Of a stretch of DNA of 64,000 bases, positions 7,472-63,749 are shown piece after piece. The notes under the pieces are model-generated. The model made no database searches. It was not told the DNA's origin and saw nothing but the letters and a program-made list of their open reading frames with translations. Location: contig OZ024743.1 of assembly GCA_964016885.1 (NCBI GenBank), positions 163,866,001-163,930,000 of the forward strand. The letters are read 5' to 3'. Both the position numbers and the translations under genes were made by a program. The stretch's first letter is position 1. Every line of letters starts with the position of its first letter. Origin of the DNA: Eledone cirrhosa. Taxonomy: Eukaryota.

Positions 7472-7654
7472 TATATATATATATAAAAGAAAATTTCGCT
7501 CTACATGGCTGAATACAATAAATGTAATCTGACTTTTTCGAATATTAATAATAACATTCGATTTGTTTGCAATTATGCAAACAAACCTCAATTTTATAGC
7601 CATGTCAGTAGAATGAACACTTCATTCTTGCTCTTGTGTTGGCATGCGAACAGA

Positions 7655-7700
7655 ACTGCAGACAGAAATGTTTCTGGGTATCACCCTTCATCAGTACAGC
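7655..7700 (-). ncRNA. Type I hammerhead ribozyme
   Basis: Minus strand reads GCTGTA CTGATGA A GGGT gat ACCC A GAAA CA tttc TG TC TGCAGT. Stem I is GCTGTA/TGCAGT, the core is intact and the cleavage triplet is GUC. Confidence 0.8.
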
Positions 7701-8143
7701 TCACTGTTCACCTGCTAAATTGTCAGAGCTAGTGAAAATATATGCTATTTTCAAAAATACACAGTGACTGATCGGCTTGATTTGCATATTAGCAGACTGG
7801 CTGATCAGTCAGATCTACATATTAGCAGATCCACTGATCAGCCAGATTTGCATATCAGCAGACTGGCCAGTCAGTTTCCTGTATACGAGCGATAAATGGA
7901 CGACTTTGCCAAATTTAAATAAAAAAGAAAATTTCGCTCTACATGGCTGAATACAATAAATGTAATCTGACTTTTTCGAATATTAATAATAACATTCGAT
8001 CTGTTTGCAATTATGCAAACAAGCCTCAATTTTATAGCCATGTCGGTAGAATGAACCTTTCATTCTTGCTCTTGTGTTGGCATGCGAACAGAACTCCAGA
8101 CACTAATGTTTCGAGCTCTGACAGTTTGGCAGGTAAACAGTGA

Positions 8144-8189
8144 GCTGTACTGATGAAGAGTGATACCCAGAAAAATTAGTGTCTGCAGT
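8144..8189 (+). ncRNA. Type I hammerhead ribozyme, degenerate inverted copy
   Basis: GCTGTA CTGATGA AGAG tgata CCC A GAAA aattagtg TC TGCAGT. The core is intact; stems II and III carry mismatches. Confidence 0.65.
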
Positions 8190-8607
8190 TCTGTTCGCAT
8201 GCCAACACAAGAGCAAGAATGAACTGTTCATTCTACTAACATGGCTATAAAATTAAGGCTTGTTATCATAATTGCAAACGAATCGAATGTTATTATTAAT
8301 ATTCGAAAAACTCAGATTACATTTATTATACGTATATATATATTAATAAAAGATCGGAGGCAATATTCAGTTGATTCAGGTTTATTTAAAACTCTGTTAT
8401 ACTTATTTCATTGAGGACTATCAGATATGATAGCCTGAGCTCTTCAGATGGCAAAACCTAAAATAAACATTGAAAGTTCCTAAGAAATCTTTAAATTTGG
8501 AAAAATCCAGTAATTTCCCCGAAAAAGATTTGCTTTTCATTGATACAGGGGGCTGGCGAAACACATGGTGTTGTTTATTTGATGGCTGGCCCCTGTATGT
8601 GCATGCC

Positions 8608-22994: not shown

Positions 22995-23216
22995 ATATAT
23001 AAAATGAATAAAAATAACCAGGATTAAATTACATTAAATTATTTAAGTGATTTACAAATGTTTCTAATTATGTTATTTATGTTGTTTAATAGATTCTAAA
23101 GAAATCAATGCAGAGGAAAAAATGTATTTTCTTACTGTATTGATAGAAACCTTCGTAAATCACTTGAATAATTTAATGTAATTTAATCCTGGATATTTTT
23201 ATTCATCCCATATATA
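22995..23216. repeat. Foldback/MITE-like element with ~70-bp inverted arms
   Basis: atgaataaaaataaccaggattaaattacattaaattatttaagtgatttac (23004-23055) is matched by its reverse complement at ~23155-23206. Both flanks are TA. Confidence 0.8.
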
Positions 23217-23719
23217 TTTAAACATTTCCAAAGTATATGTTTATTGTCTTTAAAGACACATAACAGTCTTCGGCCAGAAAATTGTGAATATTCTCAACCA
23301 GCATTGATGTTCTAATGTCCCTCTCCCTCCCACACCTCTCATCATCTCTCACTTCCTCGCTACTGTAATCGGCTCATACAAGTTAATCCATAAGCAGTCT
23401 GGGGCATTTCATAAGTTTCTGTAGCATTTTGGCCCAGTTTAACACAAAACCTTATTGCATAGCGAACTTTCAAATTGTCTTCACGTCCCAACTGCATTCT
23501 GTAAACTAGTTAGCTGTGACAACCAGTGTTTAATAAGGTGTATTCAAATTACTGTTACAGCTGTCTCCTTCATTCTGAAATAACAAGAGTTGACAAGTCA
23601 GTTTATTAGATGTATAGTGATGATATACTAAAATTACAATAGTCTAGGACAGTTATAACTGCCTCTCCTAAAAAGTCTCAAAATGTCTATAATGCACCTT
23701 GTATATATATATATATATA

Positions 23720-26284: not shown

Positions 26285-27108
26285 GAGGATGTTACCAAAT
26301 TAATATTATGCTAGAGATGTTGTTACCAATTTGATATTACACTAGAGATGTTGTTACCTGTTTAATATTACACTAGAGATGTTGTTGCACAGTTAATATT
26401 GCACTAGAGATGTTGTTACCAATTTAATATTGCACTAGAGATGTTACCAGTTTAATATTACACTACAGATGTTACCAATTTAATATGACATTGGAGATGT
26501 TGTTCCAATTTGATATTACACTAGAGCTGTTACCAGTTAAATATTTCATTAGAGATGTTGTTACCAATTTACTATAACATTACAGATGTTGTTACCAATT
26601 TAATATTACACTAGAGATGTTACCAGTTTAATATTACACTAGAGATGTTACAGTTTAATATTACACTAGAGCTGTTACCAGTTTAATATTACACTAGAGC
26701 TGTTACCAGTTTAATATTACACTAGAGATGTTACCAGTTTAATATTAGTCTAGAAATGTTACCAGTTTAATATTACACTAGAGATGTTACCAGTTTAATA
26801 TTACACTAGAGATGTTACCAGTTTAATATTACACTAGAGATGTTACCAGTTTAATATTAGTCTAGAAATGTTACCAGTTTAATATTACACTAGAGATGTT
26901 ACCAGTTTAATATTACACTAGAGATGTTACCAGTTTAATATTACTCTAGAAATGTTACAGTTTAATATTACACTAGAGATGTTACCAGTTTAATATTACA
27001 CTAGAGATGTTACCAGTTTAATATTACACTAGAGATGTTACCAGTTTAATATTACACTAGAGATGTTGTTACCAATATAATATTACACTAGAGATGTTAC
27101 CAATTTAA
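26285..27108. repeat. Minisatellite, 28-bp unit (agagatgttaccagtttaatattacact), ~29 copies
   Basis: Contiguous tandem units, with 31-bp variants carrying an extra tgt. There are no unique spacers. Confidence 0.95.
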
Positions 27109-29977: not shown

Positions 29978-30034
29978 GTTGCTGTAGGAAAGGTAAAGGA
30001 AAGGATAGTGCTCTATGTAGGCTACAGAGCTATT

Positions 30035-30262
30035 TAGTTATGTAATAAACAACATAAGACAATTATTCCATTTACCAAAGGTTTCAGGAAGACAGACGAG
30101 CTCGACGAAGTCGTCTGAAATCGTTCACCTGAATGAAATTTTATTTTATAAATAAAATTTCATTCTGACGAACGATTTCAGACGTCTGTGTCGAGCTCGT
30201 CTGTCTTCCTGAAACCTTTGGTAAATGGAATAATTTACTTATGTTGTTTATTACATAACTAA
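30035..30262. repeat. ~230-bp near-perfect palindrome (foldback/MITE-like)
   Basis: Arms ttagttatgtaataaacaacataag...gaatgaaattttattt and its reverse complement flank a tiny AT loop at ~30147. Confidence 0.9.
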
Positions 30263-30264
30263 GT

Positions 30265-31185
30265 ATCATCATCACCGTTTTACGTCTGTTCTTCCACACT
30301 AGCGTGGGTTAGACGGGTTGTCCTGTTGTGGGCAGTGTCCGGTCGGCTGACAATGCCTTGCTCATACGGGAACTGATTCTGGCTTGATTTCTACAGCTGG
30401 ATGCCCTTCCTAACACCAACTTCATTTACAGTGAGTGCTGGGTGCTTTTTTTTTCGTGCTGCCTACACATCCACTTTACAGTGTGGGCTGGGTGCTTTTT
30501 TGCCGTGGCACCTTCACGACCACTTTGCAGTGGGAGGGTGTGGGGTCATATTGTCTATATGCTTCAGCTTCAGCTTGTACCCGTGGGGGCCTGGTCTTCT
30601 GTATTACTGCATGACGCCAGAGGTCACGGTCGTGTGTCATCGCCTTTGAGAGGTGTAATTGGGTAAGGTCAGCTTTTATCACCTCATCCCAGGTCTTCTT
30701 GGGTCTCCCCACTCTGCAGTTTCCATCAACTTCTAGTGCTCTGCACCTTTTTATGCATCACATGTCCATACCAATGCAACCGCCTCTCCTGCACACAGCA
30801 TTTGATTCCTCTTATGCTCAGTCTCTCTCTCAATTCATTTATGCTTTGTCATTCGCGTATATTACTATTACACATCCATCGGAGCATGCAGGCTTCGTTT
30901 CTTTCTAATCTACGCAAGTCTTCCACAGACAGCGCCCAGGTCTCACTACCATGTAACATTGCTGTCCGTATACACACATCATACAGTCTGCCTTTCATTT
31001 TGAGGGAAAATCCTTTTGCAGCTAGCAGTGGCAGTAGCTCCCTGAACTTCTTCCATCCCGTTTTTACCCTAGTTATTGTACTTTCCGAACACCCACCTCC
31101 GCTGCTAATTCGGTCACCGAGATAGCAGAAGCTGTCTACTGTTTCTACAGAGCCCTCCCAGAGTTTGGTGGTACTTGTTTCCTAT
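30265..31185 (-). mobile_element. RTE LINE (subfamily A) 3' fragment
   Basis: Encodes YLGDRISSGGGCSES through GRPKKTWDEVIKADL, followed by the 3' UTR and (CAT)n tail. Confidence 0.92.
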
Positions 31186-34360: not shown

Positions 34361-34511
34361 ACCACCAACTTACAATCATGAGTCCAATACCTTAACCACA
34401 AGGCTATCTCCTTTATACACTGATCTGTCAAAAGAAAGAGTTTCTTTGTTTTGGGGTCTGCTCACTCTTTTATTTTGAAAGAGGTAAAATGTAGAAAAAT
34501 GTAAAAAAAAA

Positions 34512-35300
34512 GTGGTGTTGTTGGTGGTGGTGACAGTAATAGTATTGTTTGTGGTGACGGTAGTAGTGGTGGCGGTGGTGGTGACAGCAATAGTAGTGGT
34601 TGCGGGGGTGGTGTTGTTGGTGGTGGTGACAGTAATAGTAGTGGTTGCGGGGGTGGTGTTGGTGGTGGTGGTGACAGTAATAGTATTGTTTGTGGTGACG
34701 GTAGTAGTGGTGGCGGTGGTGGTGACAGCAATAGTAGTGGTTGCGGGGGTGGTGTTGGTGGTGGTGGTGACAGTAATAGTATTGTTTGTGGTGACGGTAG
34801 TAGTGGTGGTGGTGGTGGTGACAGCAATAGTAGTGGTTGCGGGGGTGGTGTTGGTGGTGGTGGTGACAGTAATAGTATTGTTTGTGGTGACGGTAGTAGT
34901 GGTGGCGGTGGTGGTGACAGTAATAGTAGTGGTTGCGGGGGTGGTGTTGGTGGTGGTGGTGACAGTAATAGTATTGTTTGTGGTGACGGTAGTGGCGGTG
35001 GCGGTGGTGGTGACAGCAATAGTAGTGGTTGCGGGGGTGGTGTTGGTGGTGGTGGTGACAGTAATAGTATTGTTTGTGGTGACGGTAGTGGCGGTGGTGG
35101 TGACAGCAATAGTAGTGGTTGCGGGGGGGGGGGGGGTGACAGTAATAGTAGTGGTTGTGGTGACGGTAGTAGTAGTGGTGGTGGTGTTGATGATGGTAGT
35201 GGTGGTGGTAGTAGTGGTGGCGGTGGTGGTGGTGTTAGTAGTTATAGTAGTTGTGCTGGTGTTGATGATGGTAGTAGTGGTTGGTTATGATGGTAGTAGT
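34512..35300. repeat. GGT-rich minisatellite with ~96-bp higher-order unit, decaying into (GGT/AGT)n
   Basis: Repeating ggtggtgacagtaatagtattgtttgtggtgacggtagtagtggtggcggtggtggtgacagcaatagtagtggttgcggggg. Confidence 0.9.
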
Positions 35301-35635
35301 GATGTCAGTGGTGTTGATTGTAGTAGTAATGTTTGTGGTGTTGTTGGAGGCAATAATGATGGTGGTGTTGGGGAGGGATGTGAAAAATGTATGTTGGTTC
35401 AAAAGATGTTTCAGTGGGAGGTAAAGATAGGGTGCTTGAGTAAAGAGGGTGTGGCCAGGTAAGTGTAGGGTGGTGGGGTAATGTGGTTGGGAAGTGAAGG
35501 TGGTATTGTACTGTAAGTGGGAGGTGCATTATTCAATAAGGTATGGGAATTTTGCTATTTGGGGTGGGGGGCTAAGCAGTTGCTTTTTATATATCAACTC
35601 TCCCCTCACTTATTCTCACTGTCCTATTATTAAAG

Positions 35636-38240: not shown

Positions 38241-38836
38241 ATATATATATATATATAAAGAAGGTGATGATGATGATGATAAAATAGAAGATTATAAATG
38301 CATTCCTCCTCACTCATCTTGAAGTTATTGAAGAGATAAGACACACTCTACTCTGAAAGGCTAAAATGAATCACTAGAGTTGATTTAGCTACGTTCCAGT
38401 CATCCATCCATACAAATCTGGTCAGGTATTTCAGCCACCACAACACATCTATTTTGTTATCCTCATTTTTCCCCTACCATGCTGACTCTGTCTCTGTCTA
38501 TTTTTCCATCAAAGGCTACAGGCCATGACTGGCTATTATTAATATTATTGTTGCTGTATTCTATTGGCTACTTTGCCAGGCTGTATTCTATCAGTTAGTT
38601 TGTTAGCCTTGATGGCGACCCTCTCTATACCTCACAATTTCCCTCCCACCCACCTGCTCACACCACCATCCCACCCACCCCCTCACACCACCATAGCCTA
38701 TTCGACCAATCAAACCTCAGCATGCCATTTCTTCTACTACTACCTAACTCTCTCCTCCCCCATCCCAGCCCAACACACCCTGCCATTATTACCACCACCA
38801 CTGTTCTTCTAGCCCTCAATTTTCCTACCAGTATGG

Positions 38837-40051
38837 ATGGATGAGCTGAGAATAAATTGGAGCAACTCTGAATTAATAGATGAAATGAATATGAATCCGC
38901 GAGCTACCAAGCACCCATGTGAAGCGCCAATCCAGAAAGAGGAAGCACACACACACCCCCGCAAAAATCGACCCTTCCCTACAAGTGTCGACAAATGCCC
39001 CAAACTCCGAGTTGGTACCATCAATGTAAGGACAATGAAAGGAAGAGCAGGAGAAATGCTAGACCGAAAGGAAATTGATGTATGCTGTGTGCAAGAGACT
39101 AGATGGAGAGGAGAGTCTGCTAGAGACCTTGTAGGAAAAAGTCGGTGCTACAAATTTTTCTGGGTGGGAAATGACGATGGGATGGGTGGTGTAGGTATAC
39201 TACTAGCTGACAAGTGGGTAGATAAAGTAATCTCAGTGTACAGGGTAAATGCAAGAATCATTAAACTCAGACTAGTCCTGAATAAAACAATTACCACAAT
39301 AATATCAGCTTACGCACCCCAATCGGGGTTGCCAGACAAACTTAAGGATAGATTTTACGAGTCCCTAATGCACACTACTGCTCTAACAAACGACAATGAC
39401 TTCCTAATCATCGCAGTAGATTTTAACGGACACGTTGGTAAACACTGTGACAGCTTCAATGGAGGCCATGGGGTTGGCACAAGAAATGAAGAAGGATTCA
39501 GACTTCTAGAATTCTGCGACGCCAATGACATGTCCATATGTAACACAAACTTCAAAAAGCCCGACAACCACTTGATCGCCTATAGATCAGGGGAGCATTC
39601 TAGTCAGATAGATTTTATCCTCATCAGAGAACGTGACAGATGGACGGTCGTAAACACAAAAGCCTTCCCTGGTGAGGAATGTACCTCCCAACATAGCTTA
39701 GTTGTCAGCGACCCCACAGTCAGAACTAGACGAACCTGGAAACAGAGGCCAACCTGGAGAAGAAAGATCTGGAAGCTGAAAGACCCCTCAGCCAGTAACA
39801 GATTTAAAGATATTTTACTCAATGCCTACGACAGTAAAGAAGAACAGATAGAGACATTCAATGTAGAAGAGCACTGGGAGTTCCTAAAAAATAACTTACT
39901 AGAGGCGACAGATGAGGTCTGTGGCTGGAGTAAGACCACAAGCAGGAGGAGAGTGACTTGGTGGTGGAACAATAAGGTAGATGAGGCAGTTAAGGCCAAG
40001 AGACAGGCATGGAAAGAATGGAAGAACGGGGGAGCAGGGTACATTACATAG
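38837..40051 (+). CDS. RTE apurinic-type endonuclease domain (frameshifted into RT)
   Basis: GTINVRTM, CCVQETRW, GGVGILL, ISAYAPQ, DFNGHVG, QIDFIL, SQHSLV. Confidence 0.9.
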   Translation: MDELRINWSNSELIDEMNMNPRATKHPCEAPIQKEEAHTHPRKNRPFPTSVDKCPKLRVGTINVRTMKGRAGEMLDRKEIDVCCVQETRWRGESARDLVGKSRCYKFFWVGNDDGMGGVGILLADKWVDKVISVYRVNARIIKLRLVLNKTITTIISAYAPQSGLPDKLKDRFYESLMHTTALTNDNDFLIIAVDFNGHVGKHCDSFNGGHGVGTRNEEGFRLLEFCDANDMSICNTNFKKPDNHLIAYRSGEHSSQIDFILIRERDRWTVVNTKAFPGEECTSQHSLVVSDPTVRTRRTWKQRPTWRRKIWKLKDPSASNRFKDILLNAYDSKEEQIETFNVEEHWEFLKNNLLEATDEVCGWSKTTSRRRVTWWWNNKVDEAVKAKRQAWKEWKNGGAGYIT

Positions 40052-40172
40052 AGACCAAGAGGGAAGCTAGGCGACAAGTATACATAGGTAGGAGGGAAGC
40101 AGAGGATAGAAAATTCAAGCATGTTTTGCAACGTGAGGACCAGAAACAGGAGGTGTTCAAGATTGCGAGGCA

Positions 40173-41351
40173 GTGTGTCAGGAGAATTGTGATGTCATTG
40201 GAGAGAAGTGTATCCGGAATGATAAAGGTGAGCTTGCCCTCACAAGTGCTGAGAAGAAAGATGCATGGAAGAGTCATTATGATAGATTACTAAATGAGGA
40301 GAATGCATGGGAAGAAGAGACCCTACCCCAAGTAGACCGTATAGAGGGGCCAGCAGTACAAGTCAGCAGCAACGTAGTAAGTAAGGCAATCAAAGATATG
40401 AAGATGGGGAAGGCAACCGGTCCATCGGGTATAGCTGCCGAGATGCTGAAGGCATCTGGGTCTGTAGGTCACACTATAACCACACGTATTGTTAACCAGG
40501 TAATACTAGGTGTCATACCAAAAGATTGGTGCAGTAGCATCATTGTCAACTGCTACAAAGGTAAAGGTGATGCACTCGATAGAGGAAACTATAGAGGTAT
40601 AAAGCTGATGGACCAGGTCATGAAAGTAACAGAAAGAGTTATAGCACAGTTGATTAGGGACCGGGTAAAACTAGATGAGATGCAATTTGGGTTTGTACCA
40701 GGAAGAGACACCACTGATGCCCTCTTCCTTGTGAGGCAGTTACAGGAAAAGTACCTAGCTAAAAGTAAGCCACTCTACCTGGCATTCGTTGATCTCGAGA
40801 AAGCCTTTGACAGAGTTCCACGTGCTGTAATCTGGTGGGCTCTTAGAAAACTAGGAGTAGATGAACGGCTTGTGAAAGCTGTACAAGCCATGTATAGGGG
40901 AGCAGTCAGCAAAGTTAGGATTAGCAATGAGTATAGCGTACTGGTTGGGGTCCACCAGGTCTCTGTTCTTAACCCTCTCCTGTTCATCATAGTTTTGCAG
41001 GAAATAACGGAGGAGTTTATGACCGGATGCCCATGGGAACTCCTGTATGCTGATGACCTCGTACTTATAGCAGAATCTATGGTAGAACAAGAGAAGAAAT
41101 TCCAAACTTGGAAGCAGGGACTAGAAAGAAAGGGTCTCAAAGTCAACATGACAAAGACTAGGGTCCTTGTAAGTAGACGAGAAAACAGAACCCAGATCCC
41201 CTCAGGGAAATGGCCTTGCTCAGTATGTAGGAAAGGTGTAGGTAGGAACTCCATTCTCTGCCCCAAATGCAAACAATGGGTACACAAGAGATGTAGCGGG
41301 ATCTCAGGAAGCTTAATTAAGAATGTAGCCTTCACATGCAGCATGAGGTGA
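40173..41351 (+). CDS. RTE reverse transcriptase, truncated after the PHD-like finger
   Basis: QFGF, DLEKAFDRV, LYADD, then WPCSVC..CPKCKQWVHKRC..FTC. Confidence 0.9.
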   Translation: MCQENCDVIGEKCIRNDKGELALTSAEKKDAWKSHYDRLLNEENAWEEETLPQVDRIEGPAVQVSSNVVSKAIKDMKMGKATGPSGIAAEMLKASGSVGHTITTRIVNQVILGVIPKDWCSSIIVNCYKGKGDALDRGNYRGIKLMDQVMKVTERVIAQLIRDRVKLDEMQFGFVPGRDTTDALFLVRQLQEKYLAKSKPLYLAFVDLEKAFDRVPRAVIWWALRKLGVDERLVKAVQAMYRGAVSKVRISNEYSVLVGVHQVSVLNPLLFIIVLQEITEEFMTGCPWELLYADDLVLIAESMVEQEKKFQTWKQGLERKGLKVNMTKTRVLVSRRENRTQIPSGKWPCSVCRKGVGRNSILCPKCKQWVHKRCSGISGSLIKNVAFTCSMR

Positions 41352-47300: not shown

Positions 47301-49636
47301 TCTCTGCGACCTGTCCCATTGAATTCTGGCAACGAATAACACATTAGCTAACTCCAGGATGCCAGAGCCAGATCAAGAAATGGAGGTAGCACAAGAAATT
47401 TTTCAGAAGTCAAACTATGATATTCAAGCCTTGCGTGACATTGCAGCAACACTTCTGGAAGGAAGAAGAACACACTCCATGTTTAAGCTGCCCATAGACT
47501 TCACACAGTATGAACAATTTTTTTGCAACATCAAGACCTCGCCCAAGGTCAAGCTTCTGTAAATATGCAAGATGATAATTTGGGATGAAGATACCATGAG
47601 CAGTTGAAGCCTTAGACTGGACAATAAGGGATCTGAGAGACAATACTTGCATAATGGTAGTTGTGACAATAGTTCTTGCTGGTGATTTCTGACAAACTCT
47701 GCCTGTAATTCCTCGAGGGACCCAAGCTGATCAGGTCAATGCCTATCTGAACACATCTTATTTCTGGACACTCTTGCAGTGACTGAGCCTTACAAACAAT
47801 ATGCGAGTGCATTTGACTGCTGATGAAGGTGTCAGTGAGTTTACCATACAGCTACTCAAACTGGGAAATGAAATTCTTGAAAAAGATTTCAACAACCAGA
47901 TTCAGTTGTCCTTTGGCCATATCACTGAAACAGAACAAGAACTGATTGTCTAAGTGTTTTTAAACATTCAGATCAGACAATGTGGTCCCCAATAGTTCTG
48001 TGGATAAGCAATCTTACCACTGAAAAATGTTGCTGCGAGAGAAATCAACAGAAAGCTACTGGACATGTTACCGGGAGAGAAAAGATGCTATAAATCAGTT
48101 GACACAATCACTTCCCAAGACCAGGTTGTAAATTATCCAACTAAATTTTGGGACAGTCTTGAACTAGCAGGAATTCCTCCACACAACCTGATACTGAAGC
48201 TTGGAGCATCAATTATACTGCTACTTAATCTGGATCTTCCAAAACTTTGCAATGACACAAGACTTATCATCAAAATTATTTTGCCCAATGTCTTAGAAGT
48301 CATAATCATGTCAGGAAAAGCTGCTGATGACAATTGTTTTATTCCCAGAATACCTCTGAAGGCAACTGATCTGCTATTTGAATTTCAAAGGCTTCAATTT
48401 CCTATCAGACTCAGTTTTGCCATGACCATCAATAAATGTTGAGTGCAATCATTAAAAGTCGTTGGGTTGAACCTGGCAGATCCTGTCTTTTCACTTGGTC
48501 AGCTCTATGTTGGTACTACAAGGGTTGGAAACCCTGATTGTCTCTTCATTATAGCACCACAGGGCAAAACCAAGAATATTGTTTATCCAGAGGCTTTGGA
48601 ATGAGCAATATCGTAATTCCTATTTTAATGACAAGGCACATAGATCCTAATTCCTTAGTCATGTAGTTTGTAAGGAATTCTGAAATTGCAAATTTACTAC
48701 ATAAGAATATGCAGGCATCCCCAGGTACCTCTGCTATATAAAGTAGTATAGTGGTAGCTAGAACTGTTAGAAATAGCATCCAAATTTCCTTCAAATCCCT
48801 CCCTACTCTCTCATGTAGATATGTATGAAACAAAAAGAAAAGGTTCTATGTGATATCTCGATCTATTAGAAATATAGGCAAAATTCCCCTCAAACCATAG
48901 CCAACTGTATTACACAAACGTGGATGCATACATACATGTGTGTGTATGTATGTTGTGGGGGCCACTATAATTTTTGGTACACCTGATAGAAATAGAAAAC
49001 AAATCCCCCTCAAACACAATCCTACTGCTTTCAAGGTAAAGGTAGGTGACAGCTACAGAGTAAAAACGTAATTGCACTTTCCTGAATTACAGAAATGAAT
49101 AAGTAAATGCTTCATCCATGAGCCAATGCTAACTTTATTTTTTTTTTTATTTTATTTTATTTTTTTTTATTTTATTTTATTTTATTTTATTTTATTTTAT
49201 TTTATTTTATTTTATTTTATTTTATTTTATTTTATTTTATTTTATTTTATTTTATTTTATTTTATTTTATTTTATTTAAGATTTTCAAAATAGTCTGTTT
49301 TGTTTTGAATTTTGGAGGTTCTGTTTGTGCAAAACAAAAAGAAGATAAATAAAAAGAATTCCAAATTTATTTTTCGTCAAGCCCTTTTCACTGACAACAT
49401 ATCTAATGATTTATCTATAGGCAAAACATTATATATGCTGACTGCAAAGTATTCAAAACTAATAATATTTTTATCTAGATAACTTGCATTGAATAAGCAA
49501 CAATGAAAACTTGCTATAGTTCCTATTTTAGTGAAAATATTGTAATCCTATTTTATTGGTCAAATATTTTGTAATATGTACCAAAATATATTGTTATTTT
49601 CATAAAATACTGGGTATTGCCAGGTACCTCTGCTAT
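44340..49636 (+). mobile_element. Decayed autonomous Helitron (Rep/PIF1 helicase pseudogene)
   Basis: Rep region: HRAYDSLQYPL, SSFMRGPRYM and the HUH motif E*QKRGLPHSH (~46212-46244). Helicase region: GRRTHSMFKLP, IIWDE, GDF*QTLPV, QFPIRLSFAMTINK and GQLYV. 3' end-like motifs lie at ~48745 and ~49636. The 5' boundary is uncertain. Confidence 0.9.
49141..49277. repeat. (TTTTA)n pentanucleotide microsatellite
   Basis: Direct reading. Confidence 0.95.
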
Positions 49637-52531: not shown

Positions 52532-52695
52532 CACACATATATATATATATAAAAGAAATAAGATTTCGCTTCACGCATAGCTTTATATAATATGTATAGA
52601 AATACGGTTTTAGGAAGCCGTAGCTATGCAAACACCGGGAGGGGGGGGGGGGTGCTAATGCCCTCTGGTGGTGTCCAGCAGAAGCAAGGAGGACA

Positions 52696-52739
52696 ACCGT
52701 CTATGCATTTTAGGCTTGACTGGCCTTCGTCAGGACGGT
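52696..52739 (-). ncRNA. Minimal type I hammerhead-like motif (G12A variant)
   Basis: Minus strand reads ACCGTC CTGACGA AGGC cagtcaa GCCT AAAA TGCA TA GACGGT. It has a 6-bp stem I, a 4-bp stem II and palindromic stem III ATGCAT; GAAA is read as AAAA. Confidence 0.7.
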
Positions 52740-53030
52740 CCCTCCCACCGCTTGCCACTGCCGGACTTGAAAACAGTCGAGAATATATAGTTTTCTCGTC
52801 TGTGTGCAGCTTCATATGCAAATGAGATTAATCACCTCATTTACTGTATCCATTCATGCATGCAAACATACATATATAAACACACACACAAGCACAAGCA
52901 TATATATATATATATGGAATGTAGAAAAGTGACATACAAGTTGATATATATAAAAACAAATAATAAAAAGGAAAAAATTCAGTAGAAAATGCTGGAGGGA
53001 TTTTTTCAGTATAATATCAAAACATTTTTT

Positions 53031-53160: not shown

Positions 53161-53790
53161 ATGTGCAAAGTGCAGTTAAGATGCATATTTATACGAATTA
53201 TAATAAAATGGGGAAGAAAAATGATTAGTTTTTACATTGACATTTAGAGGAAAGTTCATGTCTCTGTTCAAGGTTATCTTTTGTTCTCTGTTAGTTGGCC
53301 AGCAGAGGTGGTAGTAGTTTTAAATTTTTGGTTCTGACTGCTGGTTTCCACAGGTAGTAGTGGGGGGAGAAGTGGGTTAGGGGGGAGAAGAAGACATGAG
53401 ATAGGTGTGGTAGCAATCTGTTGTGGTGATAGTCACTTTCAATAAAGGCTACAAAGGCTAGCTGGGCATGGGATTGGCTTGAATTGTTGAATGACGTTAG
53501 AGTTGACTGGGGAAGTAATTGTTCCTGTCTGAAATGCTGGCATTCTTAAATCTCAGAAATAGTCAACATAGACTTTATAATTTTGCCACAAAAAGATTCA
53601 GAATTACCAGATTCAGGTAAATCATTGATTCTATTTTGATTCTATTACGCTGAAAAAGCATATAATGCTGAAACTGGTACCACTATTAAATGCAGAAATA
53701 CCCACTTTATAAATAAATGTTTTGATATTATACTGAAAAAATCCCTCCAGCATTTTCTACTGAATTTTTTTCCTTTTTACTATATATATA

Positions 53791-54158
53791 TGGAGGCACA
53801 TGGCTTAGTGGTTAGAGCATTGGCCTTGCAATCGAAAGGTTGTGAGTTCAATTCTCAGACCGGGTGATGTGTTGTTTCCTTGAGCAAGACACTTTATTTC
53901 ACATTGTTCCAGTTTACTCAGCTGTAGAAATGAGATGATAGGGACTCGGGTCCCTATCATTCCACTGCAAAGTGGTCGTGGGGGTGCCACGCAAAAAAAG
54001 CACCCAGCCCACACTGTAAAGTGGACGTGTAGGCGCCACGGAAAAAAGCACCCAGCACTCATTGTAAATGAGGAGGGCATCCAGCTGTAGAAATCAAGCC
54101 AGAATCAGTTCCCGTCCCACCCTTGCAAGCAGGGAAAAGTGGACGTAAAATGAAATGA
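53791..54158 (+). mobile_element. tRNA/CORE-like SINE with RTE tail
   Basis: Sense-orientation copy that retains an extra RTE 3' UTR subrepeat. Confidence 0.9.
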
Positions 54159-56027: not shown

Positions 56028-56299
56028 GTATATATATATACATACACACACACATGTGTATATATATATATCCAATGTCAATTTAATCCCTAGGGATTTT
56101 TGTACAAGTTGAAAACATGTTATATATATATATATAGAGATAAAAAAAAACATGGGTGTGTATGATTGTGTATAGAAGATTATATTAATAAGAGGAATTC
56201 CAACTTTGTCTGATTTACTCGTTTTATTTACAATCCTTTAAAATTTATAATGGTATTATAATGAAATAGTATGATAAATATTAAATGTTAAGTGTTAAT

Positions 56300-56338
56300 T
56301 GAACAAGTACTTTCATGCTTTCGCAATCTTCAGGTTCA
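56300..56338 (-). ncRNA. Minimal type I hammerhead ribozyme in the PLE 3' pseudo-LTR
   Basis: Minus strand reads TGAAC CTGAAGA tTGC gaaa GCAt GAAA GTAC TT GTTCA. It has a 5-bp stem I, a GNRA-capped stem II and palindromic stem III AGTACT. Confidence 0.85.
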
Positions 56339-56723
56339 TAATGTGTGGTGACAGTCAAGTTTGCAATTTTCAACTGTAATGAGATGGGTAAATTTTGTAC
56401 CTTATATACAGTGAAAAGTGGCTCCAGAATGCTAAATCTTGCAAACTGTATTTCGACCAATCGGTGTGTAGTTTCACTGAATTACTAAAGCTGATTGGTT
56501 TAGGCGTCACGGTTGGTTGAGCATGTCTAACGACCACTAATTGAGCCTATCCAAAGCATCAATTGTTTTGCTATTTTTAGAAATGATGAAAATAGCATTT
56601 TCTAGTAATCATCACCATCAACATAACTTTTATTATTATTATTATTGTTGTTGTTATTGTTAGTGGTCGTAGTCGACATGGTCGTAGTCATAGTCATAGT
56701 AGAAGTAATACCTCTAAGCATTA

Positions 56724-57434
56724 TTATTGTTCATTTAGCTTGGGTTTGAATTTATCAATAAAATTCTTTTCTTTAATTTTTCTCTTGATTTCACTTGGGC
56801 TGTGTAATTTGTAGAATGGGAATATTATAAATATTCCCTGACCACATGTTGCTAGATAGTTACTTAGGGGTATCTGACGGACATTTGGGTCTCTGATTTG
56901 CTGATGGTGTACCCGTGCACGTTCCGATAGTGCATTTCCAGTTTGACCGACATATAGTTCTTCACAATTCGGGCATTTAATGCAGTAAATTAGATTTCTG
57001 CTTTTGCAGTTCATATTTGCATTTGGGAATATTTTTCCAGTTTTTGTGTTCATATATTGACCAGTATGTATGGATTGACATGTGCCACATCGACTATCAT
57101 TGCATTTAGATACAGTGAATGATTGGTCTTTGTTGTTAAGGTCAAACTTTGCTTTTGTTAGTAATTGCTTCAAATTTTTCGGCTGCCTTTTACTAAGAGT
57201 CAAAGATCGATCTGTGATTAAGCCTTTTAATTCATTACTTTGAGCAATGATCGGTAGGTTTGCTTTGGCAGTGTTGAAGATATTCTGGTGACATGGGTTG
57301 TGTGTCATTATAAATGGTATGACCAGTTCTTGGTTTCTTCTTCCTTGGGTTGTCCTAAGTTGTTGTATAGGTATTTTTATAGCCCGCTGTATGCCATTTT
57401 CTATAAGTAGAGATGGGTATTTTTGTTTGAGCAA
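56724..57434 (-). CDS. PLE C-terminal linker and GIY-YIG endonuclease (pseudogene fragment)
   Basis: NLIYCIKCPNCEELYVGQTGNALSERARVH..KEKNFI..FKPKLN. Confidence 0.85.
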   Translation of the reverse strand: MLKQKYPSLLIENGIQRAIKIPIQQLRTTQGRRNQELVIPFIMTHNPCHQNIFNTAKANLPIIAQSNELKGLITDRSLTLSKRQPKNLKQLLTKAKFDLNNKDQSFTVSKCNDSRCGTCQSIHTGQYMNTKTGKIFPNANMNCKSRNLIYCIKCPNCEELYVGQTGNALSERARVHHQQIRDPNVRQIPLSNYLATCGQGIFIIFPFYKLHSPSEIKRKIKEKNFIDKFKPKLNEQ

Positions 57435-59139
57435 AAATTCTTAGTTCTGTTAGGCGTTTGTACCTGGTATTCGTATCTTCTACAATGGTACAAATTCTTC
57501 TGGCTAGGCAGTATGGGATGTTGCGTTTTGTATGAGGTGGATGGCATGACTTAAAATTCAGATATTGATGGGTGTCTGTGTGTTTATAATATATATCCGT
57601 GGTAATGGTGGTGTCGTTTTTGATTATCATTATATCTAGGAATGGTAATTTGGTCCTACTCATCTCTTTTGTGAATTGGAGAGATGAGTGTAGGTTATTC
57701 AGGAGGATATTGAACTCATCCAGAGTATCTAGAGATTCTGTCCAGATGATGAAACAGTCGTCAAGGTATCTCTTCCAAGATTTTTCAATGTACTTTCTAA
57801 AGTCAGTACTATATTTTTTCTATATACCTTAGTAGAGTTGTTGTTCTAAGTATCCCATTACAGAGTTCGCGTAAACAGGAGCAAACTTCGTTCTCATCGC
57901 TGTGCCTCTAATTTAGATGTAATTCTTTCCATTGAAGAAGAAAGTGTTGTTTTCCAGAATAAGTGTAACTGTGTCAAATATAAATGGCGCTGTGAATCGG
58001 ATGGGAATCACTTCTCTATGTTTTTCCACCCAGTATTTAACCGCCTTTATTCCTAAATCATGTGTAATGTTGGTGTAAAGGCTTACCACATCAAAACTAA
58101 GTAGAAGTGAATTCGTTTCCGTGGTTTTGGGAAGATGGGACAGGAAGTCGATATCATCCCGGATGAAACTGGGTATGTGAATACATAGTGGTTTTAAAAT
58201 AATGTCAACAAAATTGCTTAGACGTAGGTGGGGCATGTTGGACCAGCTATAATAGGTCTAAGTTTTAAGTCTTTTGGGTGTAGTAATTTAATGTACTCAC
58301 TGTTTTGTTCTCTTACTGCCAGTTGTATTTCTTTTGACTTATGAACTTTTGGTAGGCCATACAGATTGCTGGGTTTTGGCTCAAAATTGGTGATGTAATC
58401 TCTTTCCTTATCAGTAAGTGAGTTGTGGTATTTTGAACCCAGGTTGTTGATCTTCTTCATGATGTTGTGGTCTATATTTGACGGTATTTCATGATAGAAT
58501 GTTGTGTCTTTCAGTTGTTCCTCAACCAAATCCTTGTAGTATTCAGCATCCATTATAACAACTGCACCCCCTTTATTTGCTTGTTTAATTATTATTGTTT
58601 TATCATTTTGTATACGTTTAAGTGCAGACATTTCTGATTTGTTAATGTTTGGCCTAACATTAGTATTACGTCTAAGAGGAAATTTAGACAGGATGTCAAT
58701 GTATTGGTCGAGATAGATATTTCTTCCTTTTGGCGGAGTGAAATTTAATTTATTCTTTACTAGTGATTCATCACTCTCATTACTTTTATCAGTGAAGAAT
58801 TCTACAAGACGTAATTTTCGACAGAATTCTTGGGTATCCTCTTTCAGTTCTTGGTGGTTGACTGTTGGAGTCGGTGTGAATTTCAGTCCTTTTGACAGAA
58901 TTTGCATTTCATCATTGTCAAGATCTCTTTTAGATAAATTAATTATTTTAGGATCTACGTGTACAGTTGTTTTGGGTATGTTTCCTCCTGGAGTTTTTCT
59001 TTTTCCGGTTTTTGTTGTCCTGACGTTAAAAAATGGATTTTTCTCTGTTCAGGATTTATATTCTTGTTGGTGTTTGCTTGAACTTTTGGTCGTGATATTA
59101 TATTTGGTTTGGTTACGTATTTTGTCCTATTTTTGGTAT

Positions 59140-59176
<37 letters not shown>

Positions 59177-59320
59177 GTACATGCACACATATACATGTAC
59201 TCCCATATATATATATATATATATATATATTTATGTAAAAGGTAACAGAAATAACAACACAATCGGTACAGTATATGGAAGGAATATATTAGGTTAACGC
59301 TTGATATAGTAGGAAGAGGG

Positions 59321-59357
59321 TCTTAACGTTTCGGACGCTAGTCCTTCAGCAGAAGAA
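59321..59357 (-). ncRNA. Minimal type I hammerhead-like motif (A6C variant)
   Basis: Minus strand reads TCTT CTGCTGA A GGAC tagc GTCC GAAA CG TT AAGA, with palindromic stem III ACGT. Confidence 0.65.
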
Positions 59358-59699
59358 AGAATGAGAAATAAGATAGATTGAGGGGACGGGCGGGTTGGAA
59401 TTGGAAAAAATGTCTTTAGATAAAAATAACAGATCCATTCATATTGACATCTCTTGCAAAGGTCATTGTTGAAAGTCTCTGGATTTCGCAGAATACTTTA
59501 TATTTTTTATTGGAGAAGGTAAGATATTTTTCCGCAAAAATTTGATTGCATTGTTTTGTTTCCATTTATGTATTTTTTGAAAATGTTATTTATTCATTAT
59601 AAGAATTAAATGATAGCATTCTATATGTAGATGGGCCCCCTTTATCTCCTGGCAACCAATATTTTTAGACCCAGTCTGTTACTGTATATATATATATAT

Positions 59700-60350
59700 A
59701 TAAGTATGTATACGTACATACATATATGTATACAGACGTATAGTAGTATGTATATATATACATACATGCATACATATATATATGTACGTATGGATTTACC
59801 GAACATTTATTATAATGCTCGATTTGTTTGTAAACAAACATCCCGAATTAAGCCGTACAGTGTTTAGCAACCATTGTTGCCCTTTTGTTCAACACTGACA
59901 AAGGAACGATGTACTAGTTTCAAGCTTATTAGCTATTGTCAGCACCATATACCTTCCTGCCAGATGATTGAATGTCTGAAAGTATATACTTTCCTTATGC
60001 ATATTAACGGCTGAGCAGCCTAATTTGCATATCGAGTGAGTTAATCGGCCAGGCACACCAAAAACGATAAATGGAAAAAATGAAACAAAATTTAATTTCT
60101 CACTCTTAGTACGGTTGTTACTTAAATATAAGTATGTACACGTACATACATATATGTATACAAACGTACAGTAGTATGTATATATATACATATATGCACA
60201 CATATATATATGTACGTTTGGATTTACCGAACATTTATTATAATGCTCGGTTTGTTTGTAAACAAACATCCCGTACTAAGAGTGAAAAATGAAATTTCGT
60301 TTCAGTTTTTCCATATATATATATATGGAAAAAATGAAACGAAATTTCTT
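59700..60350 (-). mobile_element. Second hammerhead-bearing partial-tandem plus inverted non-coding element
   Basis: 59701-59845 is repeated at 60129-60272 (period ~428 bp). 60270-60313 is the reverse complement of 60071-60114. Confidence 0.7.
59908..59946 (-). ncRNA. Minimal type I hammerhead-like motif (G8A variant)
   Basis: Minus strand reads GGTG CTGACAA tAGC taataa GCTt GAAA CTAG TA CATC, with palindromic stem III ACTAGT and a GUA site. Confidence 0.65.
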
Positions 60351-60604: not shown

Positions 60605-63292
60605 TCATCATCATCATCATTTAACATCCATCTTCCACGCTAGCATGGGTCTGGACGGGAATTGTCCCACTTGAGGCCAGATTGGTTGTCTTGCTCAGGA
60701 CTCTCTGGTGGGTTATCTACAGCTGGATGCCCTTCCTAACACCAACCACGTTTATAGTGTGGACTGGGCGGTTTTTACCGTGTTACCTACACAGCCACAT
60801 TACAGTGTGGACTGTGTTTTTTTGTCGTGACACCTACACAACCTCATTTATTTAAGACTGGATGTTGAGGTACCAACATAGCTTTACATCGAAAGGGGTG
60901 GTGTAGATGGCCATGGGGGTAGGGGTAGTGGGACGAGGGTGTATTTTGGTTAAAAGGTGCCTACTGACTGTAGGTTTCGCTTTGTACTTAGGCAAGGCGG
61001 GTCTTCTGTATTACTACGTAGTGACATTATCTTGGAGAGGTGTAAGTGTGTGAGGTCGGATTTTATCAAGTCCCAAGTTTTTCTAGATCTGCCTACTCCG
61101 TAGCTACCGTCTATTTTGATCGCCCTGCACTTTGTTATACAGCTGTCATCTTTCATGCGCATCACGTGACCATACCAACGTAGTCTTCTCTCAAGTAAAC
61201 AGCATCTGATCCCTCTTATTCCTAATTTCTCACTTAGTTCATTTATGCTTTGCCGTTCGCGTATATTACTATTACACATCCAACGGAGCATGCAAGCTTC
61301 ATTCCTCTCCAGTCTGCGTAGATCCTCTGCACACAAGGCCCATGTCTCACTGCCATGTAACATCGCTGTTCGTATGCAGGCATCATACAGCCTGCCTTTT
61401 ATTTTTAGAGAGAAACCTTTAGTGGCCAATAGTGGTATAAGCTCTCTGAACTTTTTCCATCCCATTCGGACTCCAGCTACAGTACTTTCGGAGCACCCTC
61501 CACCACTGCTGATTTTGTCACCCAGGTAACAGAAGGTGTCCACTATTTCTATAGAACCATCTGGGCAATGGAATGAGCTAGTATTCTGTGGACATTTGCT
61601 GCTACTTATTGCACCAGAGCACCGACCACATATAAAATCTATATTCTTAGTTAGCTTACCTGTGATCCCACTACATCTTTTATGCACCCATACTTTGCAT
61701 TTGGGACATAAAATGGAGTTTCTGCCTACTCCTTTCCTACACACTGAGCATGGCCATTTCCCAGATGGGACCAGTGCCCTATTCTCCTTGCTACATATTA
61801 GGACTTTAGTCTTAGACAAGTTAACTTTAAGGCCTTTTGATTCTAGGCCATCCTTCCATGTTTGGAATTTCTTCTCTAGTTCCGCCATTGATTCGGCTAT
61901 GAGTGTTAGATCATCTGCATAGAGAAGTTCCCATGGACAGCCGGTCTTGAACTCCTCCGTTATAGCTTGGAGAGCGATAATAAATAGGAGGGGGCTAAAG
62001 ACGGAACCCTGATGAACACCAACTTTTACGCTAAACTCTTCACTATATTTGTTGTTAATTCTAACCTTGCTGACTGTTTCTTTATACATGGCTTGTATAG
62101 CTCTCACAAGCCATTAATCTACACCTAGTTTTCTAAGAGCCCACCAGATAATGGAGCCGGAGACTCTGTCAAAGGCTTTCTCCAGGTCTACAAAAGCTAA
62201 GAAGAGGGGTTTACTTTTAGCTAGGTACTTCTCCTGTAGTTGTCGTACAAGGAAAAGAGCGTCTGTGGTACTTTTACCTGACACAAACCAGAACTGCATT
62301 TCATCTAGATCAATTCGCTCTCTGATTAGTTGCACTATTACTTTTTCTGTGACCTTCATGACCTGGTCAATTAATTTAATGCCTCTATAGTTTCCCCTAT
62401 CTAGGGCATCTCCTTTACCCTTGTAGCAGTTAATGATGATGCTGCTACGCCAGTCCTTTGGTACGACCCCATTCTGTATAACTTGGTTTATTATACTACC
62501 TTCAACTTGCACTGCTGGTCCCTCTATTGGATCGATGTGGGGGAGACTGTTTTTCTCCCATTTATTCTCCTCATTTAGTAGCCTTTCGTAATGACACTTC
62601 CAAGCTACCTTCTTATCAGCGTCAGTGATGGCAAGTACACCATCATCATTACGGACACACTTCTCCCCGACAATATCACGGTTCTCCTGAACACCTCACG
62701 TTTTTGGTCCACGCGTTGTAGAACATGCTTGAACTTTCTTTCCTCTGCTTCCCTTCTTGCAAAGTACACTTGTCTCCTAGCTTCCCTCCTAGCCACTTGA
62801 TAGTCTTCTCTACTTCCCCCATCCCGCCATACTTTCCAAGCCTGCTTTTTGGCCTTGATTGACTCCTCCACCTTACTGTTCCACCACCAAGTTTCTCTCC
62901 TCCTGCCTATAGGTCTGCTCCAGCCACAGATTTCATCTGTCGCCTTCAGCAGGTTAGCTTTCAGGAATTCCCACTGTTCCTCTATATTGTACGACTCTAA
63001 TTGCTCTTCCTTACTGTCAAAAGCATCAAGTAATATGCTTTTAAATTTATTACTGGCTGTGGGGTCCTTTAACTTCCATATTTTTCTCCTAAGGATAGTC
63101 CTCTGTTGTCGAATACGTCTCATCCTGACTATGAGGTCGCTAACTATGAGGCTATGTTGGGAGGTGCATTCTTCATGGGGGAGGGATTTAGTGTTTACAA
63201 CAGACACTCTGTCTCGTCTTCTGGTAAGGATATAATCTATCTGACTCGCGTGTTCCCCTGATCTATAGGTGATCAATTGATTGTCTCGTTTT
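60605..63292 (-). mobile_element. RTE LINE (subfamily B), truncated within the endonuclease, with small internal deletions
   Basis: ORFs 62605..63411 (QIDYIL, SQHSLI), 62114..62512 and 60950..62107 (LYADD, finger, YLG). It has a (CAT)n tail and (TA)n flanks. Confidence 0.95.
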
Positions 63293-63323
63293 TTTGAAGT
63301 TAATATATCTGTATGTGTGTATG

Positions 63324-63394
<71 letters not shown>

Positions 63395-63407
63395 ATGTAT
63401 TTATATA

Positions 63408-63749
63408 TCATTTCATCATTTCATTTTACGTCCGCTTTTTCCCTGCTTGCAAGGGTGGGACGGGAACTGATTCTGGCTTGATTTCTACAGCTGGATGCCC
63501 TTCCTAACACCAACCTCTTTTACAGTGAGTGCTGGGTGCTTTTTTGCCGTGGCACCTCCACGACCACTTTGCAGTGGAATGACAGGGACCCCAGTCCCCT
63601 ATCATCTCATTTCTACAGCTGAGTAAACTGGAGCAATGTGAAATAAAGTGTCTTACTCAAGAAAACAACACATCACCCGGTCTGAGAATTGAACTCACAA
63701 CCTTTCGATTGCAAGGCCAATACTCTAACCACTAAGCCATGTGCTTCCA
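63408..63749 (-). mobile_element. tRNA/CORE-like SINE with RTE tail
   Basis: Near-identical to the other copies and embedded in TA/TG microsatellite. Confidence 0.9.

What the first reader, a model, noticed from the sequence alone, without database searches (positions are those of the whole stretch)
59700..60350. Second, sequence-distinct element with the same ~430-bp tandem, terminal inversion and hammerhead architecture
Seen: a 145-bp direct repeat at ~428-bp period, a hammerhead-like fold at 59908-59946 (core CTGACAA, G8A) and a 44-bp inverted terminal segment (60270-60313 vs 60071-60114). Its architecture and period match 7485-8330 despite little sequence similarity. Inference: several independent families of small hammerhead retroelements share a size constraint and an integration mechanism.
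Basis: partly seen in the sequence, partly recalled or inferred. Interest (0 to 1): 0.75.

Follow-up and report, generated by a model that had tools for sequence, protein, structure and literature searches.

The report
Decayed mini Penelope-type hammerhead retroelement

Summary
The structure is real. There is a 145-bp repeat at 428-bp period (138/145 identical), a minus-strand minimal type I hammerhead with G8A (0/5000 shuffles), and an inverted 43-44-bp end piece.

The 'independent families' inference fails. The element aligns collinearly with 7485-8330 over about 300 nt (67% of aligned pairs; 0/300 shuffles and 0/1220 window tiles score as high, even with the hammerhead masked). A third relative at 52551-52860 keeps the CTGACGA core. 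All three have an octamer about 90 nt and a TATA-like hairpin about 50 nt upstream of the core, and all end in (TA)n. The similar periods (428 and 438) come from different filler, so a size constraint is not shown.

Partial tandem, inverted copy, one-sided tail, (TA)n target and minimal hammerhead are the published Penelope-like (PLE) signature. A decayed Neptune/Nematis-type PLE lies about 0.6 kb away.

Best reading: a non-autonomous PLE derivative (non-LTR retrozyme kind), inserted by a PLE reverse transcriptase-endonuclease; this copy's ribozyme is probably dead. One useful detail: the inverted piece is almost exactly the tail the main copy lacks, a twin-priming geometry. Genome-wide copies could not be checked.

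The parts
59685..59702 (.). (TA)n run at the 3' end of the main copy; presumed target site
59701..60273 (-). Main copy: 573 nt, 1.34 units of a 428-bp monomer with no RT/endonuclease ORF, read on the minus strand and 5'-truncated at the inversion junction
   Evidence: no tblastn hit to 24 PLE proteins here
59701..59845 (-). Repeat copy A
   Evidence: 138/145 to copy A'
60129..60273 (-). Repeat copy A'
59704..59787 (-). 84-nt TA-rich palindromic block inside the monomer (second copy 60132-60215). It starts at the position where the inverted copy of the 7485-8330 relative ends in (TA)n
59906..59948 (-). Minimal type I hammerhead; G8A at 59937; U.U at 10.1/11.1; palindromic stem III; presumed cut site 59912/59911
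59978..59993 (.). Perfect 16-nt palindrome containing a TATA-like box, 47 nt upstream of the core (49 and 57 nt in the two relatives); promoter role inferred
60023..60030 (-). Octamer ATGCAAAT 88 nt upstream of the core (93 and 90 nt in the two relatives); an imperfect second copy lies near 59995-60002; promoter role inferred
60065..60074 (-). 10-mer at the tail-to-promoter junction, found in the window only here and at 7890 in the relative
60071..60114 (-). Tail segment of the monomer (present between the units, absent from the main copy's 3' end)
60271..60313 (+). Inverted terminal piece = the tail alone; 3-nt overlap with the main copy at the junction; its 3' end runs into (AT)n
   Evidence: 43/48 identity
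60314..60323 (.). (AT)n run between the inverted tail and the third tail copy
60324..60350 (-). Third, short tail copy ending in the same (AT)n from the other side (may extend to ~60354 with an 11-nt gap)
7485..8330 (-). Homologous relative: 438-bp unit, 628-nt main copy with a 29-nt tail, 217-nt inverted copy without the tail, intact CTGATGA core, three 33-bp octamer-type repeats
52551..52860 (-). Third relative: 5'-truncated single unit, CTGACGA core but first base of the GAAA box changed, octamer and TATA-like hairpin upstream, 3' end in (TA)n
56140..59140 (-). Neighbouring decayed autonomous PLE (RT + C-terminal GIY-YIG, CX4CXXC linker: Neptune/Nematis type), with its own minimal hammerhead at 56338->56300. 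Context and candidate helper clade; not shown to be the parent

Best explanation
A decayed copy of a non-autonomous Penelope-like element (non-LTR retrozyme kind). The 428-bp unit is essentially a PLE pseudo-LTR closed on itself without the ORF: putative promoter (octamer, TATA-like box), minimal hammerhead, hairpin-rich 3' part, tail. A tandem or read-through transcript (or a circle) of this unit was bound in trans by a Neptune/Nematis-type PLE protein. The GIY-YIG domain nicked a (TA)n microsatellite on both strands. The RT primed from one nick at the tail end, copying 43 nt, and from the other nick at the internal site just before the tail, copying 573 nt. The two cDNAs joined through a 3-nt overlap, giving partial tandem plus inverted end. 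Afterwards a G-to-A change in a CpG (CTGACGA to CTGACAA) probably killed the ribozyme. SHOWN: repeat, inversion, tail, TA ends, hammerhead motif, homology to two relatives, shared junction, absence of an RT ORF, a nearby PLE. INFERRED: promoter function, RNA intermediate, identity of the helper, twin priming on one RNA (about 0.5 on its own), CpG origin of G8A, loss of activity.
For: Architecture matches Fig. 2 legend and text of PMC8557442: partial tandem, inverted 5'-truncated copy, 30-40-bp tail at one end only, (TA)n bias linked to the CX2-5CxxC linker. Two alternative 3' ends one tail apart: 29 nt in 7485-8330, where the main copy has the tail; about 58 nt here, where only the inverted piece has it. 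This matches the two RT start sites shown in vitro for an anole PLE (PMC11167929). Main copy + 14-nt gap + inverted piece tile one contiguous 631-nt template. All 10 listed 3' termini run into TA repeats (8 in the window, plus L001 and L004); L001, an autonomous relative of the neighbouring PLE, ends in the same TTTCTTTT-then-TA as two of the mini-elements. U.U around stem II plus a palindromic stem III is shared with the neighbouring PLE and L001, so it is a natural PLE variant rather than decay. With register fixed by the core boxes, stem I is paired at 6 of 6 positions in each of the three relatives, with double-sided changes at positions 1 and 4; stem II also changes on both sides. The tail-to-promoter junction is shared with the relative, so the ORF-less unit predates this locus. 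Window CpG observed/expected is 0.38. G8C abolishes a PLE hammerhead, and the natural A8 variant needs U3, which this copy lacks.
Against: No sequence link to any autonomous pLTR was found: z about 0 against the neighbouring PLE's 3' region, no blastn hit of this monomer in 10 fetched loci, and nhmmer found no further member above E 0.5 outside the three training loci. Only three relatives support covariation. The predicted fold does not adopt the hammerhead shape as monomer, and cofolding two copies did not give the double-hammerhead form. Only one hammerhead is present in the insertion. The left end is ambiguous: a 7-mer matching the tail start lies just beyond the (TA)n at 59677-59683 (1 of 55 TA runs). 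No target-site duplication can be read in TA repeats. In 7485-8330 the two arms copy overlapping template, which simple twin priming on one short RNA does not explain.
Confidence: 0.85

Rival explanations
1. Local DNA accident: a solo, 5'-truncated PLE end was duplicated and inverted in place by replication slippage or template switching at TA-rich palindromes; there is no mobile mini-element.
For: The repeat unit contains 84 nt of microsatellite-like DNA. A 58-bp fold-back centred on (AT)n sits at the right end. Other fold-backs occur in the window. No second close copy in 64 kb.
Against: The relative 52 kb away has the same unit closure (tail, shared 10-mer, octamer) and the same tandem-plus-inversion layout. 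Both inversions end at element-defined sites in TA runs. This probably explains only the third tail copy or the TA block.
Confidence: 0.07
2. One reading: independent families that converged on about 430 bp because of a size constraint.
For: Periods of 428 and 438 are reached with different filler (84-nt TA block vs two extra 33-bp octamer-type repeats), which a length optimum could produce. The spans copied are also alike (631 and 628 nt).
Against: The elements are homologous, so not independent. n=2. Chance of matching within 10 bp is 7% for 150-450 bp and 2% for 51-972 bp. Published units range 51-972 bp. The third relative has a shorter hammerhead-to-end distance (183 vs 210 and 300 nt).
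Confidence: 0.08
3. A self-cleaving circular-RNA retrozyme mobilised by a LINE (RTE or L2, abundant in this window) by rolling-circle reverse transcription, not by a PLE.
For: Unit size, low GC (34%) and strong self-pairing (z -4.2 without the TA block) fit non-LTR retrozymes. PMC7229834 leaves LINEs open as helpers. LINE remnants are common here.
Against: The hammerhead is the minimal PLE type. Ends, tail and inversion are PLE-like, and the 3' termini resemble those of autonomous PLE relatives. A circular template is compatible with the best explanation; only the helper differs.
Confidence: 0.05

Closest known systems
Metazoan non-LTR retrozymes (PMC7229834; bioRxiv 10.64898/2026.07.22.740005, which argues they are non-autonomous PLE derivatives)
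   Same: ORF-less tandem unit of a few hundred bp, low GC, type I hammerhead, self-paired RNA prediction, co-occurrence with PLEs.
   Different: Only 1.34 units and one hammerhead, which is mutated; minimal PLE-type rather than canonical hammerhead; carries inversion and tail, which the parts of those papers that I read do not describe for retrozymes; expression and cleavage untested.
Canonical EN+ Penelope-like elements, Neptune/Nematis type (PMC8557442, PMC4209133, PMC11167929)
   Same: Partial tandem, inverted 5'-truncated copy, one-sided tail, (TA)n target, minimal hammerhead with palindromic stem III, insertion next to other PLE pieces.
   Different: No RT/GIY-YIG ORF; no detectable sequence identity to an autonomous pLTR available here; octamer instead of the CCAAT-like boxes seen upstream of the neighbouring PLE's TATA-like box; U.U instead of the usual G10.1-C11.1.
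Non-autonomous Chlamys elements such as MRC1 (PMC8557442)
   Same: Non-autonomous PLE derivatives that form pLTRs and head-to-tail copies.
   Different: Green algae, N-terminal-EN clade, generally without canonical hammerheads; they resemble their autonomous partners at the 3' end, whereas no partner is identified here.
Newt satellite 2
   Same: Hammerhead-bearing tandem unit (~330 bp) with an internal promoter described as snRNA-type (PMC2220036 citing Coats 1994). That this promoter includes an octamer is my recall.
   Different: Canonical, active hammerhead in long arrays; here a TATA-like box is present and no PSE was tested; no sequence comparison was possible.

Membership tests
Autonomous EN+ PLE | Single ORF with telomerase-like RT and GIY-YIG endonuclease | tested here: not met
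   No tblastn hit of 24 PLE proteins outside 56727-58958; so not filed as an autonomous PLE
PLE-type insertion (works like) | Partial head-to-tail tandem forming pseudo-LTRs | tested here: met
   1.34 units, period 428, 138/145
PLE-type insertion (works like) | Inverted 5'-truncated copy at the 5' end | tested here: met
   60271-60313, 43/48 over the extended arm
PLE-type insertion (works like) | 30-40-bp tail at one end only | tested here: met
   Tail only at the inverted end; 43-44 nt (58 nt between the two ends), slightly longer than published; 29 nt in the relative
PLE-type insertion (works like) | (TA)n target bias (Neptune, Naiad) | tested here: met
   Both ends run into TA repeats; left boundary ambiguous by 24 nt
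PLE-type insertion (works like) | Sequence homology to the pLTR of an autonomous family | tested here: inconclusive
   None to the neighbouring PLE (z about 0) or to 10 fetched loci; the host genome was not searchable
Non-LTR retrozyme | Short tandem unit (150-450 bp), low GC, no RT-coding ORF | tested here: met
   428 bp, 34% GC; no RT hit; a 126-aa frame is unconserved and without atlas hit
Non-LTR retrozyme | Type I hammerhead in the unit | tested here: met
   59948->59906, one core mismatch; 0 of 5000 shuffles
Non-LTR retrozyme ('active' by the 2026 preprint) | At least two consecutive units each with a complete hammerhead | tested here: not met
   One hammerhead only, with G8A; second unit cut before it. 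This copy is not an active retrozyme; membership applies to the lineage
Non-LTR retrozyme | Expression as linear and circular RNA; self-cleavage | not testable with these tools
   Needs RNA data and a cleavage assay
Non-LTR retrozyme | Many dispersed or tandem genomic copies | tested here: inconclusive
   Two distant relatives but no close copy in 64 kb; genome not available
Catalytically competent hammerhead | C3-G8 pair (or natural U3-A8 swap) | tested here: not met
   C3 with A8; U3-A8 variant described in PMC4209133
Catalytically competent hammerhead | G10.1-C11.1 pair closing stem II | tested here: not met
   U.U here, also in the neighbouring PLE and L001
Minimal PLE hammerhead | Palindromic 15.2-16.2 region allowing dimer formation | tested here: met
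   6-nt palindrome; self-duplex -6.8 kcal/mol, though cofold MFE is not the double hammerhead
Minimal PLE hammerhead | Covariation in stems I and II | tested here: met
   Among only three relatives: stem I 6/6 paired in each, double-sided changes at 2 positions; stem II double-sided changes; one copy of the relative has a stem II mismatch

The most novel reading that the evidence does not exclude
A lineage of ORF-less mini-PLEs, driven by an octamer/TATA (snRNA-like) promoter, preserves in its junctions a direct record of how PLE inversions form: twin priming at the two RT start sites on one RNA. In this subfamily a captured TA-rich block serves as the internal priming pad for the nicked (TA)n target. 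That would be junction-level evidence that animal retrozymes are mobilised by PLE proteins, where the papers I read offer co-occurrence and phylogeny. It would also give a 430-nt substrate for testing the open question of how PLE tandem/inverted structures arise.
Probability: 0.3. Interest if true: 0.6.

Novelty: new member of a known kind. Interest (0 to 1): 0.32.

Why it matters
As a class it is expected: animal genomes with PLEs hold thousands of minimal hammerheads and ORF-less hammerhead tandems (PMC4209133, PMC7229834, 2026 preprint). Its value is as a clean example in which an ORF-less hammerhead unit carries the full PLE insertion footprint (tail, inversion, TA target). The inverted piece is almost exactly the tail, which bears on a step that PMC8557442 and PMC11167929 call unresolved. 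If the twin-priming geometry recurs across many copies, it becomes a simple test of that step. The conserved octamer and TATA-like spacing also points to how such units transcribe themselves.

Tried and rejected
Rfam scan: 108 matches at E<=1, nearly all miRNA models on TA repeats; no hammerhead family listed. Rejected as uninformative for minimal hammerheads.

Idea that the element is the upstream pLTR of the adjacent PLE: rejected, no similarity to that element's 3' region (local z -0.1).

Similarity of the 52551-52860 element to the piece at 59240-59676 (z 5.8): the alignment is gappy and its hammerheads are out of register; not counted as homology.

126-aa sense-strand frame (59892-60269): 30 of 2000 shuffles that keep the TA blocks reach its length, the relative has stops in all three sense frames, and the atlas gave no usable hit. 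Treated as chance, not excluded.

Sigma-70 promoter/terminator scan: irrelevant for an animal genome.

One scan of genome contigs with a PLE alignment gave 10 loci, probably animal DNA inside microbial assemblies (inference). None matched the mini-element; L001 and L004 were used for 3' ends and hammerheads.

Two weak tile hits near 53300-53950 and 23100-23650 were inspected and are not family members.

Literature: searches for twin priming in PLEs (2 listings, not read), octamer in satellite 2, and octopus with Penelope or hammerhead terms gave no description of this lineage. Searches gave the papers used. Two papers that may bear on the claim (Coats 1994; Lunse 2016 on PLE hammerhead variants) were not held.

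Unchecked: the host genome, and the viral and metagenome contig collections.

Full report
SETTING. The window is AT-rich animal-type DNA full of (TA)n runs, LINE pieces, tRNA-like SINE heads and DNA-transposon remnants. The named relatives of the neighbouring retroelement protein come from bivalves or bivalve-associated samples (4 of 24 hits carry names). A mollusc host is therefore plausible; it was not established.

OBSERVATION. The repeat is real: 59701-59845 and 60129-60273 match at 138 of 145 positions, offset 428. The hammerhead lies on the minus strand at 59948->59906: 6-pair stem I, core CTGACAA (A at position 8, coordinate 59937), U.U around a 4-bp stem II, GAAA, a 6-nt palindrome for stem III, and UA at the cut site. 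In the window it found 4 motifs against 0.03 expected from 60 block shuffles; a relaxed version found 6 against 0.12. A third copy of the same piece (60324-60350) faces the inverted one across (AT)n and forms a 58-bp palindrome. Against a working ribozyme: G8A without the compensating U3; a predicted fold that pairs core bases with the palindrome (z -1.1); no double-hammerhead in cofolding; and a single hammerhead in the insertion.

THE TWO ELEMENTS ARE RELATIVES. Read on the minus strand and phased at the tail, the unit aligns collinearly with the 438-bp unit at 7485-7922 over about 300 nt, hammerheads in register: 190 of 283 aligned pairs identical. The local score is 312 against a shuffle mean of 160, with 0 of 300 shuffles as high. 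With the TA block removed it scores 272 against a best of 166 among 1220 overlapping window tiles (the two loci excluded); with the hammerhead masked, 258 against 149. The parts upstream and downstream of the hammerhead each beat all 1220 tiles, the upstream part only narrowly (123 vs 117; 160 vs 115). The best tile in the first test is a third relative at 52551-52860 (z 4.5 against this element; local z 2.3 and global z 4.0 against the other). It has the CTGACGA core but a changed GAAA box. All three have an octamer 88-93 nt and a TATA-like hairpin 47-57 nt upstream of the core; 4 of the 8 perfect octamers in the window lie in these elements. An octamer-then-TATAT pattern, chosen after seeing the data, matches twice against 0.19 expected (2 of 100 shuffles reach 2). 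The junction that closes the unit (tail, a shared 10-mer found only at 7890 and 60065, then the octamer) is common to both tandems. So the ORF-less unit is ancestral to both. With register fixed by the core boxes, stem I pairs at 6 of 6 positions in all three, with changes on both sides at two positions, and stem II varies likewise. This is covariation, but from three sequences only.

SIZE. The near-equal periods use different filler: an 84-nt TA-rich block here, two extra 33-bp octamer-type repeats there. Without them the units are about 344 and 372 bp. Two draws from 150-450 bp agree within 10 bp 7% of the time. A constraint is neither shown nor excluded.

SURROUNDINGS. About 0.6 kb to the left, on the same strand, lies a decayed autonomous PLE (about 56140-59140). 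It has a GIY-YIG domain (PF01541, E 1.5e-6; my three upstream fragments had no Pfam hit) and is 57-63% identical to RT-bearing homologues along 58907-56727. It has a CX4CXXC linker, which marks Neptune and Nematis (PMC8557442). It is broken by stops and frameshifts. Its 3' region has CCAAT-like boxes, a TATA-like box and a minimal hammerhead with the same U.U and palindrome. Between it and the finding sits another hammerhead-bearing end (59240-59676). None of these is detectably homologous to the finding. One scan of genome contigs gave 10 loci. L001 shows a related ORF followed by a U.U-flanked minimal hammerhead and a T-rich end in TA repeats like those of the mini-elements. L004 has a CTGACGA core. 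L006 and L007 are tandems, and L008 has inverted flanks. None matches the mini-unit itself.

MECHANISM. Published PLE insertions are partial tandems, often with an inverted 5'-truncated copy and a 30-40-bp tail at one end, and with (TA)n bias in Neptune and Naiad. An anole PLE protein nicks both strands of AT-rich DNA and starts reverse transcription at two sites that bracket the tail; hammerhead mutants do not block insertion in vitro. Both mini-elements show two 3' ends one tail apart. At 7485-8330 the main copy has the 29-nt tail and the inverted copy lacks it. Here the main copy lacks it and the inverted piece is the tail: 573 nt, a 14-nt gap and 43 nt tile one 631-nt template, joined by a 3-nt overlap. 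That is the geometry of twin priming, known from L1 inversions (my recall; one search found no paper applying it to PLEs among 2 listings, which I did not read). The TA block begins where the relative's inverted copy ends in (TA)n, so it may be captured target DNA that now serves as an internal priming site. This is inference. The relative's arms overlap in template, which needs a longer multimer or two RNAs. G8A is one CpG transition from CTGACGA in a CpG-depleted window (observed/expected 0.38).

UNEXPLAINED. A 7-mer matching the tail start lies just left of the left (TA)n (59677-59683; 1 of 55 TA runs, about 1e-4 per position), so the left end may be 59677. The origin of the third tail copy (separate priming or DNA fold-back) is open.

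COMPARISON. It works like a PLE insertion and belongs with the non-LTR retrozymes, which a 2026 preprint argues are non-autonomous PLE derivatives with units of 51-972 bp. It is not an autonomous PLE. This copy fails that preprint's test for an active retrozyme (two units with complete hammerheads) and fails the C3-G8 test for a competent ribozyme.

WHAT I READ. 10.64898/2026.07.22.740005: parts 1-3 of 5 (abstract through discussion); its supplements were not available and may list similar families. PMC8557442: 12 of 54 matched passages and the Introduction. PMC11167929 and PMC4209133: parts 1-2 of 4 each. PMC7229834: part 2 of 6, 10 passages and the Discussion. PMC6765202 and PMC2220036: passages. 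PMC2377424: abstract and outline only. Coats 1994 and Lunse 2016: titles in reference lists only. I opened no supplements; repeat libraries in them could already hold this family. Eight searches found no description of this lineage.

VERDICT. Real, mostly explained, new member of a known kind. Interest 0.32. The most novel reading (a junction record of PLE twin priming in an octamer-driven retrozyme lineage) has probability about 0.3 and would merit 0.6.

Noticed in passing
window 56140-59140 (-): Decayed Neptune/Nematis-type PLE ORF (RT + GIY-YIG), 5'-truncated in a TA run, with a U.U-flanked minimal hammerhead at 56338->56300 and its 3' end in (TA)n.
   Followed up: yes
window 52551-52860 (-): Third member of the same mini-element lineage: CTGACGA core, altered GAAA box, octamer and TATA-like hairpin, 3' end like that of 7485.
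   Followed up: yes
window 59240-59676 (-): Another PLE-like 3' end with a minimal hammerhead at 59356->59321 (core CTGCTGA), ending in (TA)n, wedged between the finding and the PLE ORF; unrelated in sequence to both.
   Followed up: partly
window 49849-49807 (-) and 15606-15548 (-): Further hammerhead-like motifs with intact core boxes; context not examined for the first, only viewed for the second.
   Followed up: no
window 30031-30265, 22994-23216, 15142-15404: Fold-back elements of 220-260 bp. The first has a T-rich centre resembling two PLE-like 3' ends tail to tail; the second has outer ends in TA runs. They may be short PLE inversions or MITEs.
   Followed up: partly
window 59896-59902: The + strand also reads CTGACAA here, so the minus-strand RNA has a 7-nt complement of its own core 34 nt downstream; not conserved in the relatives and not used in the predicted fold.
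   Followed up: partly
window 59892-60269 (-): 126-aa stop-free frame from an ATG across most of one unit; 30 of 2000 shuffles reach it, no conservation in the relative, no atlas hit.
   Followed up: yes
window 7767-7875: Three 33-bp repeats in the relative's putative promoter, two with a perfect octamer: local amplification of the promoter module.
   Followed up: partly
window 27980-29920, 38813-41351, 60950-63420 and others: LINE remnants with RT plus a PHD-like finger (for 60950-62113); a Pif1 helicase fragment at 48008-48442 (Helitron-like); a mariner-like transposase fragment near 20305-21054 (label from recall).
   Followed up: no
L001, L004, L006-L009: PLE ORFs with hammerheads, tandems or inverted flanks inside bacterial genome assemblies; probably host-animal DNA mis-binned, as PMC8557442 warns.
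   Followed up: partly
window 26284-27108 and 34376-35460: Minisatellite arrays (short-period repeats of about 30 bp and 48-96 bp) that give long low-complexity reading frames.
   Followed up: no
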